Source of the DNA: an uncultured SAR86 cluster bacterium
GTDB taxonomy: Bacteria; Pseudomonadota; Gammaproteobacteria; Magnimaribacterales; D2472
Direction of reading: 5' to 3'
DNA: 64,000 nucleotides
Assembly: GCA_902599315.1 (NCBI GenBank)
Contig: CACKEY010000001.1
Span: 173,328-237,327, forward strand
Shown here: piece by piece, positions 3,264-40,012 of the stretch
How positions within the stretch are numbered: position 1 is the stretch's first letter
Layout of the letters: the number at the start of each line of letters is the position of its first letter
Made by a program: the position numbers and the translations under genes
The notes under the pieces: generated by a model
The model's database searches: none
What the model saw: only the letters and a program-made list of their open reading frames with translations
Told to the model about the DNA's origin: nothing

Positions 3264-4831
3264 ATTGGAGATATTTTTATATAGCTTCGGTGGTTGCTTT
3301 ATCGTATGTTTTGTTTTTATCCTGGAATGCCGAAAAAGAAATCAAACAAGAGGTTGCAGAGGCAACCGCCATAGATATAAATAAAAGTCGGCAAGTTCTC
3401 CCCCCTGGAGAAACAGAAGATTTAATTGAAATACAAAACAGCAAATTAATTGTAAAGATAAGCCCTGTCACAGGAAAAATTTGGGAAGCAAGGCTTAAAG
3501 AACATACCTACCTTAACAACGATGACTCTCTGGGTGTAAGGTTGTTTGGTTTTGATAATGCCGCTGGATTTAAGTTTTATCTTAATAGTGGTTTTGCTTC
3601 TGAGGATCAAAGCTTTGAAACTGTAAATGTGCAACCCTCATCAGTTGAGCTTGCGTCTGCTGATGGCAAAATTAATAAAAATATTGCTCTTAAGGCCGAT
3701 GATTATGAGTTATTAATAAAGGATGTTTGGGTTGGAGATCTTCCTGTTGACCTGCCGGCTCCATACATTGCAATGTATAGAACAGGTGGAAGGGCGCTAG
3801 ATGCAAGGGATAATTTTTTTGAGAACAGCTCCTACACAGGGGTCGCTTTTAATACGCCTGATGAGCCGTATGCAAATAGTAGGCTTAGGTCTATTGACGA
3901 AAGAATAGAATATTTTCAACGGGGTGGCTGGGTTGCCTTTATACAAAAATATTTTATGGCGGCAATTTTAACCCCCTCAGACAGGGTCCAGGCATTGATT
4001 GCGCTTCCTCCGACCTCTGGCTCTGATACATATGTAATGGGGGCTATGTCTAGGGAGGTAAAAGCAAGCGATCTCATGTCTGGTGTAGATCATAGGGTTT
4101 TTATTGGGCCTAAAATTCGTTCTGATTTGATGAGTCGAGCGTCTGATTTAGAACTAACAATTGATATGGGTTGGTTTTGGTTTTTGGCTCAACCCCTGAT
4201 GATGCTGTTAAGCATGATCAATGCTTTTGTTGGTAACTGGGGTGTCTCAATTTTACTTTTGACAGTTTTGGTTAAGTTGCTGCTTTGGCCTATTTCCGCC
4301 AAGGGTTTTTCCAGTATGGCTAAAATGAGAACAGCGCAGCCGAAATTAAAAGAAATACAAGAGAGGTATAAAGACGATAGGACAAAGCTGGGGACAGAGA
4401 TGATGGCACTATATAAAAAAGAGGGCATAAACCCAGCCGGTGGTTGTTTTCCACTTTTTCTTCAAATGCCAGTTTTTATAGCTTTCTTTTTTTGTTTAAG
4501 AGAGAGTGTTGAGCTGAGACATGAATCATTCTTTTTTTGGATACAAGACTTGTCTGCGCCTGATCCATTTTTCATTCTTCCGGTTGTGTTTGCGGCCCTT
4601 ATGTATCTAACTCAACAACTTAACCCTCAGCCACCAGGTATGGATCCAACACAGGCACAAATTATGAAATTTATGCCGGTGATGATCGCCGTTATTTTTG
4701 TGATTATGCCGGCAGGTCTTGTTTTGTACTCTGTTGCAAACAGCGCGATATCTCTTGTTCAACAAAGAACGATGTATAAAAAATATGGCGCATCTGTTAA
4801 TGGGTCAGATGGATCTGGTGGTGGTGGTTAG
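3260..4831 (+). CDS. yidC: Membrane protein insertase YidC
   Basis: 523 aa with an N-terminal TM helix, a large periplasmic domain and the conserved C-terminal 60-kDa IMP core (WGVSILLLTVLVKLLLWPIS...GGCFPLFLQMPVFIAFF). Confidence 0.95.
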   Translation: MNWRYFYIASVVALSYVLFLSWNAEKEIKQEVAEATAIDINKSRQVLPPGETEDLIEIQNSKLIVKISPVTGKIWEARLKEHTYLNNDDSLGVRLFGFDNAAGFKFYLNSGFASEDQSFETVNVQPSSVELASADGKINKNIALKADDYELLIKDVWVGDLPVDLPAPYIAMYRTGGRALDARDNFFENSSYTGVAFNTPDEPYANSRLRSIDERIEYFQRGGWVAFIQKYFMAAILTPSDRVQALIALPPTSGSDTYVMGAMSREVKASDLMSGVDHRVFIGPKIRSDLMSRASDLELTIDMGWFWFLAQPLMMLLSMINAFVGNWGVSILLLTVLVKLLLWPISAKGFSSMAKMRTAQPKLKEIQERYKDDRTKLGTEMMALYKKEGINPAGGCFPLFLQMPVFIAFFFCLRESVELRHESFFFWIQDLSAPDPFFILPVVFAALMYLTQQLNPQPPGMDPTQAQIMKFMPVMIAVIFVIMPAGLVLYSVANSAISLVQQRTMYKKYGASVNGSDGSGGGG

Positions 4832-31281: not shown

Positions 31282-31361
31282 ACAATTATTTTTTTAAGAT
31301 CAAATTCTTTAAATTTTTGATAAAATTAAAAATATATATCATGAGAAGGATTTATTTCCTC

Positions 31362-31389
31362 TCCAACCTGCCTACTCCGGCAAGGTGGA
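31362..31389 (+). promoter_or_regulatory. Stable imperfect hairpin in the leader of the homocysteine methyltransferase gene
   Basis: TCCAACCTGCC-TACTCC-GGCAAGGTGGA forms 10 bp with two single-nucleotide bulges. Its 5' arm (CTCCA) is also complementary to the TGGAG of the downstream Shine-Dalgarno at 31416-31420. It is not followed by a U-run. Confidence 0.3.
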
Positions 31390-31426
31390 AAAAAGATATG
31401 GCGTTCAGCAAATAATGGAGGTGTGA

Positions 31427-32377
31427 ATGTCTTTAAAAACGAAAATTAAAAAACCATTAATACTTGATTCAGCCTTGGGTACCGAGCTTGAAAATCGTGG
31501 CGAATACCTCCCAAGTTTTAAAACTTCTATTTGGTCAGCACATTGCTTAATACATAAGCCAGAAGTTATTAAACAAATACATGTTGATAACATTGAAGCT
31601 GGAGCTGATGTAATTACCACATCAAATTATCAGGCTACTCCAGAATTACTAATTAGAGATCCAAAGGCTCCCTCATATGAAGATCTTGCAAAAAAATCAC
31701 TTGAATTATGTAAAGAAGCTGTTGTTGAAACTGGAGCAAATACCAAGATCGCTGGTTGCTTTCCACCAATTCACATAACCTTTAGGCCTGATTTAAGTGC
31801 AAAGGAAAAAAAATTGAAAAAGTTTTATGCAACCCTAGGCGAAATTTACAAAGATGATGTTGATTTAATTATTTGTGAAACAATGGCATCAATTTATGAG
31901 GGTATTATTGCAGCATCAACTGCTAAAAATTTTACAGACCAAGTCTGGTTAAGTTGGACAACAAGGGGAAATAAACTTAACAGACTCCCAAGTACAGAGT
32001 TATTAGATCTTGCAATTGATGAAGGGTTAAAATTAAATGTTGATTGTCAACTGGTAAATTGTGTTCATGCAGATACTGCTAGCATGGCAATTGAAAAACT
32101 TAAAAAAGAAAAAAGTTTTGGTATATATGCAAACTCCTCTATATATAAAAAAAATAAGTTAGAGGGTTTTGTTACTGACTCTGACGAATGGCATTATCAC
32201 AATCATCAACATATCAATCATTTAGAGTATAGAGAGTTTGTTTCTGAATGGATTACTAAAGGAGCCTCAGTGATAGGCGGTTGTTGCAGAACAACAACTT
32301 CTCACATAAAAGAAATTAGGAAAATTGTTGATGCACTAGACTTTAAATTTAAAAATGTAAACGCTAAAAAATTCTAG
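31427..32377 (+). CDS. Homocysteine S-methyltransferase family protein (MmuM/BHMT-like)
   Basis: 316 aa with the motifs GADVITTSNYQAT and zinc-ligand GGCCRTT. Confidence 0.88.
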   Translation: MSLKTKIKKPLILDSALGTELENRGEYLPSFKTSIWSAHCLIHKPEVIKQIHVDNIEAGADVITTSNYQATPELLIRDPKAPSYEDLAKKSLELCKEAVVETGANTKIAGCFPPIHITFRPDLSAKEKKLKKFYATLGEIYKDDVDLIICETMASIYEGIIAASTAKNFTDQVWLSWTTRGNKLNRLPSTELLDLAIDEGLKLNVDCQLVNCVHADTASMAIEKLKKEKSFGIYANSSIYKKNKLEGFVTDSDEWHYHNHQHINHLEYREFVSEWITKGASVIGGCCRTTTSHIKEIRKIVDALDFKFKNVNAKKF

Positions 32378-35409: not shown

Positions 35410-35727
35410 ATGAAAAAAAAACCCAATCTACAACAATGGGAGATTAAATATCAAAATCATAATATTTTGATTTCTAATTGGTGGGGTTGGAATCTTAAGG
35501 GATCTGCAGATCTATATATTGATAATCAACATCTTGACCAGAATACAAGCATGATCCCTGATACAAGCAAGCCTTTTTTAAAAAATTATAACTTTTCTAA
35601 TGACATTGATTCAGTAGAAGTCTTTATAGGCGGATTTTTTTCTGTCAAGATTTCTGTTCTTGTAAATGGCAAAAACATATACAAAGACCCATTAAATATG
35701 ATCGACAGATTATTTATAAAAAATTAA
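35410..35727 (+). CDS. Hypothetical protein
   Basis: 105-aa ORF starting 3 nt after the previous gene. I recognise no family. Confidence 0.5.
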   Translation: MKKKPNLQQWEIKYQNHNILISNWWGWNLKGSADLYIDNQHLDQNTSMIPDTSKPFLKNYNFSNDIDSVEVFIGGFFSVKISVLVNGKNIYKDPLNMIDRLFIKN

Positions 35728-35793
35728 TTTGATATAAGTGGATAGAATTTTGCAAAGGTGAAATGTCTGTAAAATTAGTTTAATATTACAATT

Positions 35794-35838
35794 ATGTGTG
35801 AATGTTGTAGTTGCTGTACTTGCGATTGTTGCTCATAA
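35794..35838 (+). CDS. Polycysteine mini-ORF (MCECCSCCTCDCCS), either a candidate leader peptide or a metal-binding micropeptide
   Basis: Hand-found: ATG followed by 13 codons, 9 of them Cys (TGT/TGC), then TAA. There is no clear Shine-Dalgarno. An 8-bp perfect hairpin (ATTGTTGC-TCATAA-GCAACAAT, 35825-35846) encloses the stop codon. It lies 63 nt upstream of the MBL gene. Confidence 0.35.
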   Translation: MCECCSCCTCDCCS

Positions 35839-35901
35839 GCAACAATTAAGCTGGTAGTTAATATCCATCGTCTGGCGGTATCCCCCGCGCGTGTGAAATA
35901 A

Positions 35902-36699
35902 ATGCTTATTAAGCAAATACCCATAAGAAATAACCTAAAAAATTACATGTATTTATTAGCATGTGAGAAAACTCACGAGGCAATTGCAATTGATCCGTTG
36001 GATCATGCTTTATGTCTTCAAGCTGCTAAAGATAAGGGGTGGACAATAAAAACAGTTGCTAATACCCATCATCATCATGATCACATTGGCGGTAATGGCC
36101 CTGTTATTTCCGCCACAAATGCAAAATTAGTTGCTCACGTTGAAGCCATGGACGCCATTCCAAATGTTGATAGAGGTTTAAATGCTGGAGATGAGTTGAC
36201 GTGTGGAGAGCTAACTTTGAAGATAATGGATACTCCCGGTCATACAATGAGCCATATTTGTTTATATTATGAGGGTAGCGATACTGAAATGCCCGCTTTA
36301 TTTTGTGGCGACACTTTATTCAATGCAGGGGTAGGGCGATGTGATTTTGGAGGAGAACCATCAATTCTTCATAAAACATTTGAAGAGCAGATTTTTTTAC
36401 TTTCAGACAGTGTTCGCATATATCCAGGACATGATTACATTGAAAATAATTTAGAGTTTACATTAGATAGAGAGCCAGATAATCAGTCCGCTAAAAAATT
36501 AAGAGATAAGTTTAAAAGCGGTCTAGATGCTGAAAGCTTTATAAGCGATATCGGGTTAGAAAGAGAAATCAACGTTTTTTTTAGACTCGATGAGCATCAG
36601 GTTCGAGTTGGAATCGCAGATTCATTAAAAATTGATGTGAATAGTTTAGATCGTCAAAAGACCTTTATTTGCTTAAGGGGATTGCGTGACAATTGGTAA
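35902..36699 (+). CDS. MBL-fold hydrolase, hydroxyacylglutathione hydrolase (GloB)-like, possibly persulfide-dioxygenase-like
   Basis: 265 aa with the metal motif THHHHDHIGGN. GDTLFNAGVGRCDF and YPGHDY are shared with the glyoxalase II and ETHE1 families. Confidence 0.8.
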   Translation: MLIKQIPIRNNLKNYMYLLACEKTHEAIAIDPLDHALCLQAAKDKGWTIKTVANTHHHHDHIGGNGPVISATNAKLVAHVEAMDAIPNVDRGLNAGDELTCGELTLKIMDTPGHTMSHICLYYEGSDTEMPALFCGDTLFNAGVGRCDFGGEPSILHKTFEEQIFLLSDSVRIYPGHDYIENNLEFTLDREPDNQSAKKLRDKFKSGLDAESFISDIGLEREINVFFRLDEHQVRVGIADSLKIDVNSLDRQKTFICLRGLRDNW

Positions 36700-36726: not shown

Positions 36727-37368
36727 ATGCACTTAATGCCAATAATCAAATGGACTTCCTTTAGCATCATATTTTTTACTTCTATTCTTTTGCCTTTAAT
36801 TTTTTTGGAAACCCCATTATCAACTTATGCAGATGCTGCATTGGCTTGGGCAGGAACCAATAAAATGGCCATTTCATTAATAGTAATTGGTGCGTTAACA
36901 GCAGATGTAATCTTGCCAGTGCCTAACGGTCTTACTAATACTTTGTCTGGGATGTCGCTGGGCTGGAGCTTATCTTCAATTGTAGTTTGGATAGGCCTCA
37001 ATTTAGGAGCCTGCATTGGATATTTACTTGGTAGAATTGCAGCTCGCCCAATTGCAAAGATGATTATTTCTAATGAAGAATTTAATGATGCTGAAAAAGC
37101 GTTGAAAAACTTTAATACTCTTGGATTAATCTTATCTAGACCAGTCCCGGGTTTTGCTGAGCTTATAACTTTAAGTGCAGGTTTATCTAAAATGCCTTTT
37201 AAGAATTTTATTTTTGTTGTTGGGATAACTAATTTAGGGGTTGCGATAGTTTTTTCAGGAATAGGTGCTGCAGCAATAGATAGTAACTCCTCTTTTCTTG
37301 CATTTACTGGTGCTGCGGTTTTACCTGCTTTATGTTATTTTTTTTATAACAAATTTTACAAAACTTAA
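36727..37368 (+). CDS. TVP38/TMEM64 (DedA-related, SNARE-associated) family membrane protein
   Basis: 213 aa, polytopic, with VTT-domain-like segments (LPVPNGLTNTLSG...SRPVPGF). Confidence 0.55.
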   Translation: MHLMPIIKWTSFSIIFFTSILLPLIFLETPLSTYADAALAWAGTNKMAISLIVIGALTADVILPVPNGLTNTLSGMSLGWSLSSIVVWIGLNLGACIGYLLGRIAARPIAKMIISNEEFNDAEKALKNFNTLGLILSRPVPGFAELITLSAGLSKMPFKNFIFVVGITNLGVAIVFSGIGAAAIDSNSSFLAFTGAAVLPALCYFFYNKFYKT

Positions 37369-37377
37369 TACCGCTCT

Positions 37378-37914
37378 GTGACTGAGTTTAAAAATCTTAT
37401 TGTTCTCGGCCCATTGATTTATGCTATTCATCACTTTGAAGAACATATTATTTTTAATTTTAGAGACTGGCGACTTACTTATTTTGCAGATAACAATGCG
37501 ATTGCTACAGAAGAGGTGCTTATAAGATTAATTTCATTGTTATTGATAATGGTCTTTATACACCTATTAAAAAATAACAGAGGCAGTGCCCACATTGTTC
37601 TATTCTTCTTAATGACCACTCAGGTAGTCAATGCACTGTTTCATGTCTTCTTTAGTTTTTATTTTGCTGATTTTAGCCCTGGCGCTATTACAGGTGTGTT
37701 GCTTTATCTTCCTATTAATTTCTTAATATTCAAAGCTGCATTTCAAGAAGGTTTTATTAAAAGCTATCTAGAATTATTTTTTATTTTTATTGCAGGGATG
37801 TCATGTTTCGCTTTATTTGAAATTATAGGACCACAAGTAATAGCATATACAGTCCTAATGACACCAATTTACTATATTATAATGAATAGAATTGAGAATA
37901 AGGTAACTGCATAG
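37378..37914 (+). CDS. HXXEE domain-containing membrane protein
   Basis: 178 aa with a GTG start, an N-terminal HHFEEH motif and multiple TM helices. Confidence 0.6.
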   Translation: MTEFKNLIVLGPLIYAIHHFEEHIIFNFRDWRLTYFADNNAIATEEVLIRLISLLLIMVFIHLLKNNRGSAHIVLFFLMTTQVVNALFHVFFSFYFADFSPGAITGVLLYLPINFLIFKAAFQEGFIKSYLELFFIFIAGMSCFALFEIIGPQVIAYTVLMTPIYYIIMNRIENKVTA

Positions 37915-37974: not shown

Positions 37975-38370
37975 ATGAATACGCAATTAAAAGCAGACAA
38001 ACTATCAATCACATTGTCGATGGCATGTATGATTCACTGCCTGTTAATGCCCTCATTTTTAATTCTGACCTCTGGTTTTCTAGCCCTCACAATTGATAAC
38101 GAGCTTATTCACAAAATCTTTTTAATATTGGTTATACCAATAAGTCTGCATGCTTTGATTTCTGGATTTCAAAACCACAAAATCACATCCTATATGTATT
38201 TAGGCATTTCAGGTCTTTGGCTCTTAATTTTTGCTGTCTTTTTTGGAGATGGCGTTTTTGGAGAGCTGGCTGAACAAATTTTAACCTTTTTAGGCTCATT
38301 AATAGTCGCTTATTCGCATTATCAAAACTTTCAAGCGTGCAGAAAACTTGATTGTGATTGTCATGATTAA
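37975..38370 (+). CDS. MerC-domain membrane protein with a Cys/His-rich tail
   Basis: 131 aa with four TM helices, a first helix carrying SMACMIHC, and the C-terminus CRKLDCDCHD. Confidence 0.65.
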   Translation: MNTQLKADKLSITLSMACMIHCLLMPSFLILTSGFLALTIDNELIHKIFLILVIPISLHALISGFQNHKITSYMYLGISGLWLLIFAVFFGDGVFGELAEQILTFLGSLIVAYSHYQNFQACRKLDCDCHD

Positions 38371-38912
38371 TGGCAAAGATTACTCTACGAAAATTTCATA
38401 AATACATTAGTCTGCTAATAGCAATCCAGTTGCTGTTGTGGACAATATCTGGCATTTATTTTTCTTTTAACAAAATAGAAAATATTCGAGGAGAGCAGTA
38501 TCTTGTAGCTTCAACAAAAGCACCAATTGATACAAGTTTTAATGCAGATAAGCTTAATTTTAACGCTGCAAAAAAAATTGTAGAAAAAAAAACAACTCTT
38601 ATTCCTCAGAGCATCGAAATAATTGAAGAATCAAAAAGAGGATCTGAATACAGGGGAAGAGAATTGCCTTTGTATAAAGTGATATCTCTTACAAAACTTG
38701 GCAAAGAGGTCAACGTTTATCAAAACCCATTTACTGGTGAAATCGTTGCCATAAGATCCTCTGAATGGCGGATTTGGGATCTGATGTGGGGCTTGCATAT
38801 AATGGATTGGGTTGACCGAGATAATATTGATAATATACTTTTAAAAATTTTTTCATTTATTGCTCTATTTACGTCTATTTCCGGTGTAATACTTTTTTTT
38901 AAAAAATCATGA
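38370..38912 (+). CDS. PepSY domain-containing membrane protein
   Basis: 180 aa with the N-terminal LRKFHKYISLL TM segment typical of PepSY-TM proteins and a C-terminal TM helix. Its start overlaps the MerC stop by 1 nt. Confidence 0.6.
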   Translation: MAKITLRKFHKYISLLIAIQLLLWTISGIYFSFNKIENIRGEQYLVASTKAPIDTSFNADKLNFNAAKKIVEKKTTLIPQSIEIIEESKRGSEYRGRELPLYKVISLTKLGKEVNVYQNPFTGEIVAIRSSEWRIWDLMWGLHIMDWVDRDNIDNILLKIFSFIALFTSISGVILFFKKS

Positions 38913-40012
38913 AATTTCTTTTACTAAAAATATTTTTTCTCCTTTCAACTTTTCTTTTTGCTGAAGTTGATTCATTAGAACATGATCATGCAATGCATGA
39001 CCATTCAGCAATGACAGAAATGGATTCAAGCCATCATTCCATGAGCCACGGCTTTATTCCAATTGGGATAATGGGAAATATGCATCATAAAGGTTTCATG
39101 TTATCCATTAAACATGGGCGAATGAAAATGGATGGCAATATTTTAGACGGAAAAAATATTAGCGACTCAGAGATTCTTAGTATGAGAAATCCCCTTAGCA
39201 CTATGCCTACCAATCTTTCCATTATTCCTAAAAACATGGACATGAAGATGACCATGATTGATGCCATGTTTGCGCCCAACAATAATTTTACTTTTATGTT
39301 GATGGCAACCTATGTTTCCAAAGACATGAACCTAAGTTCATTTTCTCCCATGATGGCAAGAAACCTAGTGGGACAATTTAGTACATCTGCAAGCGATCTT
39401 TCAAGCCTTACTCTTAGCGGTCTCTTTAATATTAGTCAAACCGATAATTCAAAATGGCATGGAGAGATTTCACTAAAAGAATCAATTGGCAAAAATGACT
39501 CTACGGCAATGGCATTAACACCTATGGGAAAAAAAATAAAAATGATCATGCCCTATGCAATGCAGCCTGGGGATGACTCTACAAGCCTAATCTTTGGTTT
39601 AACCAATTTAAGAGAATTAGGTGAAGGTATTTTCTTGGGCAATCAGCTTAAAAGAAAAAATGTTGTCTCAGAGGCAGATTGGTCTTTTGGCGATGCAACA
39701 GAGCTTAGCTCATGGGTACAATATTCATTATCAAAGATAATGTCTATCTCATCTAGACTAAAGTTTGTTGACGCAGATAGCTTGTCTGGAAGAAACCCAT
39801 TAATTATGGCCCCAGTCCAAACTGCAAATCCAAATAATTATGGTGGTAAAGAATTACACTTGGGCCTAGGTATGAATTTAAACTTGGATCTCTTACCTGG
39901 TGGCAAAGATACCATTGGCATTGAAATACTAAAACCTCTTGATCAAGATAAAAATAACCTTCAAATGAAAACAGACTATCAAATTATTATTGGATATCAA
40001 AAAAGTTTATAA
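38909..40012 (+). CDS. Secreted His/Met-rich protein, possible outer-membrane beta-barrel
   Basis: 367 aa with a signal peptide followed by EHDHAMHDHSAMTEMDSSHHSMSHG. The rest has alternating beta-strand-like character. It overlaps the PepSY gene by 4 nt (ATGA). Confidence 0.5.
   Translation: MKFLLLKIFFLLSTFLFAEVDSLEHDHAMHDHSAMTEMDSSHHSMSHGFIPIGIMGNMHHKGFMLSIKHGRMKMDGNILDGKNISDSEILSMRNPLSTMPTNLSIIPKNMDMKMTMIDAMFAPNNNFTFMLMATYVSKDMNLSSFSPMMARNLVGQFSTSASDLSSLTLSGLFNISQTDNSKWHGEISLKESIGKNDSTAMALTPMGKKIKMIMPYAMQPGDDSTSLIFGLTNLRELGEGIFLGNQLKRKNVVSEADWSFGDATELSSWVQYSLSKIMSISSRLKFVDADSLSGRNPLIMAPVQTANPNNYGGKELHLGLGMNLNLDLLPGGKDTIGIEILKPLDQDKNNLQMKTDYQIIIGYQKSL

What the first reader, a model, noticed from the sequence alone, without database searches (positions are those of the whole stretch)
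35794..35846. A 14-codon polycysteine mini-ORF with a hairpin over its stop codon, upstream of an MBL/GloB-like gene
ATG TGT GAA TGT TGT AGT TGC TGT ACT TGC GAT TGT TGC TCA TAA encodes MCECCSCCTCDCCS, with 9 Cys in 14 residues. A perfect 8-bp hairpin (ATTGTTGC-TCATAA-GCAACAAT, 35825-35846) encloses the last codons and the stop. The repeated TGTTGC Cys codons offer alternative pairings for the 3' arm. There is no clear Shine-Dalgarno, so translation could be leaderless.

Two readings are possible.

First, it could be a cysteine-sensing leader peptide. Polycysteine leader sORFs acting as Cys-responsive attenuators have been reported in mycobacteria, to my recollection, but I know of none in proteobacteria. 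The downstream enzyme is of the glutathione or persulfide-handling type.

Second, it could be a metallothionein-like micropeptide. It sits at the head of a run of metal-associated genes (MerC-domain, PepSY, His/Met-rich protein).
Basis: partly seen in the sequence, partly recalled or inferred. Interest (0 to 1): 0.6.

Follow-up and report, generated by a model that had tools for sequence, protein, structure and literature searches.

The report
Leaderless eight-cysteine micro-gene in SAR86
The 14-codon cysteine-rich mini-gene is real and belongs to an apparently undescribed family conserved in the abundant marine bacterium SAR86 and in marine phages; it most likely makes a tiny metallothionein-like peptide rather than acting as a cysteine-sensing switch, though neither function has been tested.

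Summary
The sORF (35794-35838, MCECCSCCTCDCCS) and the 8-bp hairpin over its stop are present as described. It has 8 Cys, not 9, and the hairpin alone is at chance level.

The window is SAR86. About 45 loci carry a 14-15-codon sORF, MC[DEK]CC[SDK]CC[ENQTD]C[ATSDN]CC[SAPDG](K). Three things argue for translation: synonymous TGT/TGC changes at every Cys codon, Ser encoded by both AGY and TCN, and no hydrophobic residue at any free position.

A -10 box sits at -12 to -7 relative to the A of the ATG in 40 of 40 unique sequences. This predicts a leaderless mRNA.

Each locus has one copy, including the whole 64-kb window. The downstream gene varies: GloB-like MBL, MerC, PepSY_TM, a His/Met-rich outer-membrane barrel, HXXEE, NosD-like, TauD and others. 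In two loci it is convergent. None is a cysteine-biosynthesis gene. No conserved alternative RNA structure or terminator was found. The closest relative lacks the whole 174-nt cassette.

About 38 marine phage contigs carry 8-Cys sORFs with Shine-Dalgarno sites inside operons.

Best reading: a trans-acting, metallothionein-like Cys8 peptide linked to thiophilic-metal genes (confidence 0.45). A cysteine-sensing leader is less likely (0.2). No function has been tested.

The parts
35746..35776 (.). Possible operator: an inverted repeat, AATTTTGCA (35746-35754), 13 nt, TGTAAAATT (35768-35776), lying over the -35 region of the sORF promoter.
   Evidence: The same position (-47 to -18) holds AATTAGCAA-N12-TTGCTAATT in L002, L003, L115 and L149. 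The window differs from these at symmetry-related positions of both arms. It is found only in the MBL-linked subgroup. A function is inferred, not shown.
35781..35787 (+). -10 promoter element, read as TAATAT (35781-35786) or, in the family register, AATATT (35782-35787). It lies 6-7 nt before the ATG.
   Evidence: Across 40 unique sequences: T-12 in 38, A-11 in 40, T-10 in 35, A-9 in 39, T-7 in 40, and C or T at -1 in 36. There is also an upstream T-R-G-T motif at -17 to -14. The window's copy matches the consensus worst, at 4 of 6, and has a 1-nt insertion. No usable -35 element was found.
35794..35838 (+). Leaderless 14-codon sORF encoding MCECCSCCTCDCCS (8 Cys), including the TAA stop.
   Evidence: The family has 37 unique nucleotide sequences and 26 unique peptides. 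Length is fixed at 14-15 codons. Both Cys codons are used at every Cys position. No other reading frame is conserved.
35824..35847 (+). Hairpin enclosing the last codons and the stop codon. The core is 35825-35832 paired with 35839-35846.
   Evidence: It is kept in 6 of 8 MBL-linked loci. L115 has one change that still allows a G.U pair. There are no compensatory double changes. It is absent in L005 and L182. No U-tract follows it in the window.
35839..35901 (+). Spacer between the sORF and the MBL gene. It includes a GC-rich stretch at 35866-35895 that is unique to this window.
   Evidence: The spacer does not align with those of relatives beyond the hairpin's 3' arm. No terminator was detected.
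35902..36699 (+). GloB-like metallo-beta-lactamase-fold hydrolase; a probable hydroxyacylglutathione hydrolase.
36727..37368 (+). VTT/DedA-family membrane protein.
37378..37914 (+). HXXEE-domain membrane protein. In other lineages the sORF lies directly upstream or downstream of this gene.
37975..38370 (+). MerC-family membrane protein with a Cys/His-rich C-terminal tail (CRKLDCDCHD).
38370..38912 (+). PepSY_TM membrane protein. Its end overlaps the start of the next gene.
38909..40012 (+). Outer-membrane beta-barrel channel with a disordered N-terminal segment rich in His and Met, and many invariant Met residues.
   Evidence: AlphaFold2 gives pLDDT 76.7. The best Foldseek matches are the COG4313 channel 4rl8, FapF and FadL. 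It has no Pfam, NCBIfam or PDB sequence match.

Best explanation
This is a small stand-alone gene, not a leader sequence.

- **Promoter (inferred).** A -10-driven promoter, possibly guarded by a palindromic operator in this subgroup, starts transcription at the A of the ATG.
- **Translation (inferred).** Ribosomes would therefore load on a leaderless mRNA and make a 14-residue peptide with eight cysteine thiols.
- **Function (inferred).** The peptide acts in trans as a metallothionein-like thiolate ligand. It would serve as a sink, buffer or chaperone for a thiophilic metal, with Cu(I) the best guess and Zn, Cd or Hg possible. The metal would be handled by the neighbouring envelope genes: the His/Met-rich outer-membrane channel, the PepSY_TM protein and the MerC-type importer.
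- **Hairpin (inferred).** The hairpin over the stop codon is a lineage-specific accessory. It may stabilise the 3' end or weakly reduce read-through into the MBL gene. It is not a sensor.

**Shown here:** the sORF exists; it is conserved with a coding-type substitution pattern; the promoter geometry is fixed; there is one copy per locus; its gene neighbours are as described; phages carry SD-led 8-Cys counterparts.

**Not shown:** transcription, translation, metal binding, the identity of the metal, and any link to the operon's activity.
For: 1. **Coding-type conservation.** There are 37 unique nucleotide versions and 26 unique peptides. Length is fixed at 14-15 codons. TGT and TGC are both used at all eight Cys positions. 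Ser is encoded by AGY and by TCN at the same position. Most members end in Lys. No other frame is conserved.
2. **Hydrophilic free positions.** These hold only D, E, S, K, N, Q, T, A, P and G. None is hydrophobic or aromatic, although 42% of random sense codons at this base composition would be. This matches the composition rule for metallothioneins (established knowledge).
3. **Leaderless promoter geometry** in 40 of 40 unique sequences.
4. **One copy per locus.** This holds for every 9-21-kb locus and for the 64-kb window.
5. **Shifting position in one gene cluster.** The sORF sits before MBL-MerC-PepSY-barrel, before MerC, before PepSY, before the barrel, or before or after HXXEE. Conserved neighbourhood with shuffled order suggests a functional link rather than cis-control of one gene.
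6. **Unrelated or convergent next genes elsewhere.** Examples are an esterase, a methyltransferase, a NosD-like beta-helix protein, TauD, DUF6607 and PNP_UDP. In L097 and L158 the next gene is convergent.
7. **Metal theme in the neighbourhood.**
   - The MerC protein has a Cys/His-rich tail.
   - The outer-membrane barrel has a His/Met-rich disordered N-terminus and about 14 invariant Met residues.
   - HupE/UreJ and a TonB-dependent receptor lie in the same cluster.
   - A CsoR/RcnR-type repressor lies beside a barrel homologue in a lineage without the sORF.
8. **Phage counterparts.** About 38 IMG/VR phage contigs carry 13-16-codon sORFs with eight Cys, an AGGAG-type Shine-Dalgarno site and tight operon packing. 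One variant, MCKCCKCCTCTCPECN, changes the C-terminal spacing but keeps eight Cys.
9. **Higher conservation than the neighbour.** Window versus L002 is about 89% identical in nucleotides across the sORF. The MBL protein is 78% identical and the spacer does not align.
Against: - No expression, peptide or metal-binding data exist.
- There is no detectable homology to any metallothionein family. The peptide is too short for the HMM tools.
- Cysteine is costly for SAR86, which cannot assimilate sulfate.
- The Cys spacing in most family members was fixed by my search pattern.
- The link with the metal-type genes could be plain synteny within one variable genome region.
- The closest relative lacks the cassette, so it is dispensable there.
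- The assignment of a metal rests on family names and composition, not on tests.
Confidence: 0.45

Rival explanations
1. The sORF is a cis-acting sensor of cysteine supply (Cys-tRNA charging), like the mycobacterial polycysteine leaderless sORFs. Ribosomes would stall in the Cys codons when cysteine is scarce. This would change RNA structure, Rho-dependent polarity or translational coupling, and so set expression of the MBL-MerC-PepSY operon.
For: - The architecture matches the mycobacterial system: a leaderless first cistron with runs of Cys codons.
- SAR86 lacks sulfate assimilation, so cysteine supply is a meaningful signal.
- The sORF is usually followed by genes on the same strand.
- The stop-spanning hairpin's 3' arm is conserved in 6 of 8 MBL-linked loci.
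- In L005, which lacks the hairpin, the Cys codons can pair with ACAAACAAC at the MBL start.
- A few downstream genes relate to sulfur or glutathione: the GloB-like MBL, TauD, and PNP_UDP, which resembles MTA nucleosidase.
Against: - None of the downstream genes is a cysteine-biosynthesis or cysteine-uptake gene, and they are very heterogeneous.
- The next gene is convergent in L097 and L158.
- The distance to the next start ranges from 12 to over 100 nt, with no conserved sequence.
- No compensatory pairs were found. Fold z-scores are near 0. There is no terminator.
- Only one copy is seen per locus of up to 64 kb, so there is no sign of a multi-operon regulon.
- Peptide-level selection at non-Cys positions is not needed for a sensor.
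- The phage versions have Shine-Dalgarno sites and sit inside operons.
- The closest relative keeps the MBL gene without the cassette.
Confidence: 0.2
2. The peptide acts in trans but not as a metal sink. It could be a thiol or redox buffer, an electrophile scavenger, a persulfide or Fe-S carrier, or a substrate modified by a neighbouring protein such as HXXEE.
For: - The evidence for translation and peptide-level selection is the same as for the best explanation.
- The surrounding region is rich in thiol and glutathione enzymes: GloB-like MBL, glyoxalase-fold proteins, MsrAB, MAPEG, glutaredoxin and GFA.
- The sORF lies directly beside HXXEE in about 10 loci.
- In phage locus L206 the next gene resembles IscU/NifU by eye; I did not check this with a profile search.
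Against: - No known modifying enzyme is nearby (no radical SAM, YcaO or MbnB type).
- There is no leader or core organisation in 14 residues.
- The most frequent partners are metal-type membrane proteins, not redox enzymes.
Confidence: 0.2
3. The sORF has no function of its own. It would be a by-product of a conserved promoter or RNA element, or a short-lived cassette.
For: - The cassette is absent from the closest relative and from all more distant MBL orthologues.
- The window's copy has the weakest -10 box in the family.
Against: - Substitutions follow codon structure, and the position of the stop is fixed.
- The sORF is conserved across lineages whose neighbouring proteins are only 50-80% identical.
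- Independent phage versions exist.
Confidence: 0.05

Closest known systems
Mycobacterial polycysteine leaderless sORFs, the 'Cys ribulon' (Canestrari et al., bioRxiv 10.1101/834739)
   Same: Both are unannotated leaderless sORFs that start at the transcription start site. Both carry consecutive Cys codons and are usually the first cistron ahead of genes on the same strand. In both, some non-Cys residues are conserved.
   Different: - The mycobacterial sORFs precede cysteine and sulfur metabolism operons. They occur at several loci per genome. They act through an RNA duplex that hides the downstream ribosome-binding site.
- Here the downstream genes are heterogeneous and metal-type. Only one copy is seen per locus. 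No conserved duplex was found.
- Phage versions here have Shine-Dalgarno sites.
- The host is a gammaproteobacterium, where leaderless mRNAs are uncommon.
Metallothioneins, especially the very small ones: the roughly 25-residue Neurospora Cu-metallothionein, mycobacterial MymT, and cyanobacterial or pseudomonad SmtA/BmtA (from my own knowledge)
   Same: Both are very rich in Cys, arranged as CxC and CC motifs. The remaining residues are only small or hydrophilic, with no aromatics. A C-terminal Ser/Ala-Lys is common. Both sit in a metal-related gene context.
   Different: - This peptide is only 14-15 residues with 53-57% Cys, far shorter and more Cys-dense than any metallothionein I know of.
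- No sequence homology is detectable.
- Metal binding is untested.
- It is translated from a leaderless mRNA.
Classical leader-peptide transcription attenuators (trpL, hisL and similar)
   Same: Both are short upstream ORFs enriched in one amino acid, with a hairpin nearby.
   Different: No terminator with a U-tract follows the hairpin in the window. There is no antiterminator alternative and no biosynthetic operon downstream.
Envelope copper systems that include a Met/His-rich outer-membrane protein, such as PcoB/CopB (from my own knowledge)
   Same: The operon's last gene encodes an outer-membrane barrel with an N-terminal extension rich in Met and His.
   Different: It does not match the CopB Pfam family. 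Its partners are MerC and PepSY_TM, not a multicopper oxidase. Whether it imports or exports metal is unknown.

Membership tests
Mycobacterial-type polycysteine leaderless sORF attenuator (Cys ribulon) | The mRNA is leaderless: the transcription start coincides with the start codon. | tested here: met
   Tested at sequence level only. The -10 hexamer lies at -12 to -7 in 40 of 40 unique sequences, with a pyrimidine at -1 in 36 of 40. No transcription-start data are available.
Mycobacterial-type polycysteine leaderless sORF attenuator (Cys ribulon) | At least two consecutive Cys codons in a short ORF. | tested here: met
   There are three CC pairs and eight Cys in total.
Mycobacterial-type polycysteine leaderless sORF attenuator (Cys ribulon) | The sORF is the first cistron of an operon for cysteine or sulfur metabolism. 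| tested here: not met
   Downstream genes include a GloB-like MBL, MerC, PepSY_TM, an outer-membrane barrel, HXXEE, an esterase, a methyltransferase, a NosD-like protein, TauD, DUF6607 and PNP_UDP. Two loci have a convergent next gene.
Mycobacterial-type polycysteine leaderless sORF attenuator (Cys ribulon) | An RNA duplex involving the Cys-codon tract hides the downstream start region, and a stalled ribosome opens it. | tested here: not met
   RNAalifold finds only the stop-spanning hairpin, with no compensatory pairs. Fold z-scores run from -0.6 to +0.2. A pairing between the Cys codons and the MBL start is seen only in L005.
Mycobacterial-type polycysteine leaderless sORF attenuator (Cys ribulon) | Several such sORFs per genome form a regulon. 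| tested here: inconclusive
   One copy was found per 9-21-kb locus and in the 64-kb window. Whole genomes could not be scanned.
Mycobacterial-type polycysteine leaderless sORF attenuator (Cys ribulon) | Expression of the downstream genes responds to cysteine. | not testable with these tools
   This needs reporter assays or proteomics with and without cysteine.
Metallothionein (operational definition) | Low molecular weight and very high Cys content, arranged as CxC, CC or CxxC motifs. | tested here: met
   The peptides are 14-15 residues with 8 Cys in the pattern C-x-CC-x-CC-x-C-x-CC. A phage variant ends in CxCxxC and still has 8 Cys.
Metallothionein (operational definition) | No aromatic or hydrophobic residues; the remaining residues are small or polar. 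| tested here: met
   None occurs at the free positions of 26 unique peptides, against 42% expected from random codons.
Metallothionein (operational definition) | Binds d10 metal ions in thiolate clusters. | not testable with these tools
   This needs metal titration of the synthetic peptide.
Metallothionein (operational definition) | Sequence homology to a described metallothionein family. | tested here: inconclusive
The similarity is compositional only.
Intrinsic terminator or classical attenuator hairpin | A GC-rich stem followed directly by a U-tract, with a competing antiterminator structure. | tested here: not met
   In the window the hairpin is followed by AAGCUGGUA. The terminator scan finds nothing at this site. 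Relatives have only a weak, displaced T-run.

The most novel reading that the evidence does not exclude
SAR86, one of the most abundant bacteria of the surface ocean, and marine T4-like phages may encode the smallest known gene-encoded metallothionein-type peptide. It would be 13-16 residues with eight thiolates. In the bacterium it would be made from a leaderless mRNA and wired to an outer-membrane channel, PepSY_TM and MerC route for a thiophilic metal. That would be a previously unseen player in marine copper, zinc, cadmium or mercury and thiol chemistry, and a new kind of phage auxiliary gene.
Probability: 0.4. Interest if true: 0.85.

Novelty: new variant of a known kind. Interest (0 to 1): 0.7.

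Why it matters
- **It escapes annotation.** Gene callers and protein databases ignore 14-codon ORFs. The protein tools here also refuse queries under 20 residues. Yet this family recurs in Tara, GOS and JGI marine assemblies and in phage contigs.
- **If it binds metal,** it sets a new lower size limit for gene-encoded metallothioneins. It would also tie SAR86 and its phages to trace-metal and thiol cycling in the ocean.
- **If it senses cysteine,** it extends ribosome-based cysteine regulation beyond mycobacteria to a sulfur-auxotrophic marine gammaproteobacterium.
- **Either way,** it adds a strong case for leaderless translation in Gammaproteobacteria, based on promoter geometry in 40 of 40 sequences.
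- **It is easy to test,** because the peptide can be made by chemical synthesis.

Tried and rejected
- **Rfam.** The gathering-threshold scan of the window and a permissive scan of 35600-36100 found nothing at the sORF. The only real hit is a SAM-I/IV riboswitch elsewhere. No tRNA genes were found.
- **RNA folding.** I folded 35760-35920 and the sORF-to-MBL regions of relatives. Energies were no better than shuffles. RNAalifold showed no covariation.
- **Promoter and terminator scan.** The scan requires a -35 element, so it misses the sORF promoter. It finds no terminator after the sORF.
- **Protein database look-up.** Annotation status in protein databases therefore could not be checked.
- **Exact MBL protein.** It is not on record.
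- **Phage isolates.** The contigs are distantly related to Pelagibacter phage HTVC008M and Methylophilales phage Melnitz. Neither has room for the sORF at the matching site, and the sORF region has no blastn match among isolates.
- **Literature.** Searches for SAR86 with metallothionein, SAR86 with leaderless, and small bacterial metallothionein sORFs found no description of this family.
- **Ideas considered and dropped.**
  - A RiPP precursor: there is no leader region and no modifying enzyme nearby.
  - A type I toxin: the peptide is not hydrophobic.
  - A mobile MITE-like cassette: there are no terminal repeats, only a short AAAT(T)AA at both edges of the indel.
  - A conserved ORF on the other strand: none exists.
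- **Search artefact.** About two thirds of the metagenome pattern hits were (TGY)n trinucleotide repeats and were discarded.

Full report
**Observation**

The sequence is as described. ATG is at 35794, followed by 13 further codons and a TAA at 35836-35838, giving MCECCSCCTCDCCS. The arms ATTGTTGC (35825-35832) and GCAACAAT (35839-35846) pair perfectly around TCATAA. With G.U pairs the stem reaches 10 pairs, at about -11 kcal/mol.

Two corrections are needed. The peptide has eight cysteines, not nine. The hairpin is not unusual in itself: the window holds 21 perfect 8-bp hairpins against 13.6 in shuffles. Local folds are no more stable than shuffled sequence, with z-scores near -0.6.

The sORF itself is far from chance. 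A degenerate pattern for its Cys spacing has no match in 100 shuffles of the window, even with three mismatches allowed. Rfam has nothing at this site.

**Organism and neighbours**

The downstream gene (35902-36699) carries Lactamase_B and HAGH_C domains and scores 185 bits against TIGR03413 GloB, whose cutoff is 200.8. Its best genomic matches are SAR86 single-cell and metagenome assemblies, at 94% and 78% identity.

The genes that follow are:
- VTT/DedA;
- HXXEE;
- MerC, which ends in CRKLDCDCHD;
- PepSY_TM;
- a 367-residue His/Met-rich protein.

The His/Met-rich protein has no family match. With an alignment of 32 homologues, all of them unnamed or labelled hypothetical protein, AlphaFold2 gives a beta-barrel at pLDDT 76.7. 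Its N-terminal segment (residues 14-48) is disordered and His/Met-rich. Foldseek places it with outer-membrane channels: COG4313 4rl8, FapF and FadL. About 14 Met positions are invariant.

**Conservation at orthologous MBL loci**

Of the 80 genome loci holding an MBL relative, three have a poly-Cys sORF about 67 nt upstream: L002 and L003 (MCDCCSCCNCDCCS) and L005 (MCECCSCCQCDCCS). All three are SAR86, with MBL identity of 78%.

The other gammaproteobacterial orthologues, at 50-79% identity, lack it. So does the closest relative, L001 at 94%. In L001 the stop codon of the upstream 105-residue gene abuts the MBL ATG. The whole 174-nt block 35728-35901, comprising promoter, sORF and spacer, is present in the window and absent there.

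**A family**

Besides (TGY)n repeats, it returned about 41 loci with a 14-15-codon sORF. Its form is MC[DE]CC[SDK]CC[ENQTD]C[ATSDN]CC[SAPDG](K). Loci anchored on the barrel gene added more members without using the pattern. One of these has K at position 3.

Across 37 unique nucleotide versions and 26 unique peptides:
- every Cys position uses both TGT and TGC;
- Ser is encoded by AGY and by TCN at the same position;
- the stop position is fixed;
- the free positions hold only D, E, S, K, N, Q, T, A, P and G, whereas 42% of random sense codons at this composition would be hydrophobic.

No other frame is conserved. The Cys spacing of pattern-derived members was imposed by my query. The residues at the free positions were not.

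**Leaderless promoter**

Aligned on the ATG, 40 unique upstream sequences show T-12 in 38, A-11 in 40, T-10 in 35, A-9 in 39 and T-7 in 40. Position -1 is C or T in 36, and a T-R-G-T motif lies at -17 to -14.

This is a canonical -10 hexamer placed so that transcription should begin at the A of the ATG. Missing Shine-Dalgarno sites are normal in this genome, where only 11 of 52 long ORFs have one, so that absence is not evidence.

The window's copy has the weakest -10 box, TAATAT or AATATT, with a 1-nt insertion and no usable -35 element. In the MBL-linked subgroup an inverted repeat spans -47 to -18: AATTAGCAA-N12-TTGCTAATT. In the window it is AATTTTGCA-N13-TGTAAAATT, changed at symmetry-related positions of both arms. 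This may be an operator.

**Leader or gene?**

Every locus has exactly one copy. That includes five loci of 17-21 kb (L234-L237 and L239) and the 64-kb window.

The gene after the sORF varies:
- MBL-MerC-PepSY_TM-barrel, in 9 loci;
- MerC;
- PepSY_TM-barrel;
- the barrel alone;
- HXXEE, which in other lineages lies just upstream instead;
- a BD-FAE esterase;
- a methyltransferase;
- a NosD-like beta-helix protein with a probable c-type cytochrome (only weak Pfam hits), starting only 12 nt after the stop;
- TauD;
- DUF6607;
- PNP_UDP;
- an SMR transporter.

In L097 and L158 the next gene is convergent. None of these genes makes or imports cysteine.

The distance from the sORF stop to the next start ranges from 12 to over 100 nt. 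Beyond the hairpin's 3' arm the spacers do not align. RNAalifold on six MBL-linked regions finds only the stop-spanning hairpin, with no compensatory pair. The hairpin is missing in L005 and L182, and other subgroups have different small hairpins over the stop. No terminator follows the hairpin in the window.

**Phage counterparts**

Two scans of IMG/VR found about 38 phage contigs with 13-16-codon sORFs. Their forms are MC[STKR]CCKCC[NS]C[TND]CC(E) and MCKCCKCCTCTCPECN. Each has eight Cys, hydrophilic free positions, an AGGAG-type Shine-Dalgarno site, and a stop that touches the next gene's ribosome site or start codon.

The second form changes the C-terminal spacing but keeps eight cysteines. 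Their contexts vary. In L206 the next gene looks like IscU/NifU by eye, which I did not check with a profile search. The contigs are distantly related to T4-like marine phages, but the cultured isolates lack the sORF.

**Interpretation**

Five observations argue that the peptide itself is the product:
- the coding-type substitution pattern;
- selection for hydrophilic residues;
- a single copy per locus;
- a shifting position within one gene cluster;
- SD-led phage versions inside operons.

Its composition follows the metallothionein rule. Its most frequent partners are a MerC-type transporter, a PepSY_TM protein and an outer-membrane channel rich in Met and His. HupE/UreJ and a TonB-dependent receptor lie in the same cluster. 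A CsoR/RcnR-type repressor lies beside a barrel homologue in a lineage without the sORF.

I therefore favour a trans-acting Cys8 thiolate peptide that buffers or passes on a thiophilic metal, with Cu(I) the best guess (confidence 0.45). Metal binding and the identity of the metal are inference only.

The cysteine-sensor reading (0.2) copies the architecture of the mycobacterial system. It is also ecologically sensible, since SAR86 cannot assimilate sulfate and only 0.95% of codons in the window's long ORFs are Cys. But it fails two defining features tested here: a cysteine-metabolism operon downstream and a conserved occluding duplex. The two readings are not mutually exclusive.

**Novelty**

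Literature searches found no description of this family. It cannot be filed by homology under any metallothionein family. It also fails key membership tests for the mycobacterial attenuators. I rate it a new variant of a known kind.

Noticed in passing
window 31331-31425 (+): A SAM-I/IV riboswitch (RF01725, 70.6 bits) lies directly upstream of a 316-residue ORF at 31427-32377. I read that ORF as a homocysteine S-methyltransferase by eye. A gene upstream of the same cluster in L239 carries the S-methyl_trans domain.
   Followed up: no
L201-L231 and L249-L281 (IMG/VR phage contigs), e.g. L212 2638-2679 (+): Marine phage contigs carry 13-16-codon sORFs with eight Cys and a Shine-Dalgarno site, packed inside operons. 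The forms are MC[STKR]CCKCC[NS]C[TND]CC(E) and MCKCCKCCTCTCPECN. The contigs are distantly related to T4-like phages HTVC008M and Melnitz, whose genomes lack the sORF at the matching site. In L206 the next gene looks like IscU/NifU.
   Followed up: partly
window 35746-35776; L002 at -47 to -18 relative to the sORF ATG: An inverted repeat overlaps the -35 region of the sORF promoter in the MBL-linked subgroup only. The window and L002 differ at symmetry-related positions of both arms. It may be a binding site for a dimeric regulator.
   Followed up: partly
window 35728-35901 versus L001 about 3990-4000: The closest relative, SAR86 single-cell assembly AG-337-O06, lacks the whole 174-nt promoter-sORF-spacer block. 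Its upstream gene's stop abuts the MBL ATG. Both edges of the block in the window read AAAT(T)AA.
   Followed up: partly
window 35866-35895: A GC-rich stretch (CGTCTGGCGGTATCCCCCGCGCGTGTG) sits in an otherwise AT-rich spacer. It has no second copy in the window or in the 248 loci fetched by then. Relatives have unrelated AT-rich spacers.
   Followed up: partly
window 35862-35871; L009, L012 and L022 just upstream of the MBL start: The motif AATATCCATC, or a close variant, recurs just upstream of the MBL start in Pseudomonadales metagenome genomes that lack the sORF.
   Followed up: no
L245 5631-5903 (-) and 6001-7047 (+): In a lineage without the sORF, a CsoR/RcnR-type metal-sensing repressor (PF02583) is divergently placed beside the homologue of the His/Met-rich barrel. 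MerC and DUF6607 genes lie nearby.
   Followed up: no
L095 (- strand), sORF at oriented position 4117-4164: The sORF is in frame with an upstream ORF of about 480 residues, with no stop codon between them. I read that ORF as sulfatase-like by eye. An annotator would call the sORF a C-terminal tail of that protein.
   Followed up: no
sORF family: Codon use is polarised. The 5' Cys codons are mostly TGT and the 3' ones mostly TGC. Overall 50% are TGC, against 35% in the window's long ORFs. GAG is used in 25 of 27 Glu at position 9, and AAG in 19 of 30 Lys at position 15.
   Followed up: partly
L234 6548-7795 and 14092-15045: The cluster around the sORF in this SAR86 lineage also holds a weak SBP56 match (the selenium-binding protein family; its members include methanethiol oxidases, from my own knowledge), DUF3604, a rotamase and a HupE/UreJ-type metal transporter.
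   Followed up: no
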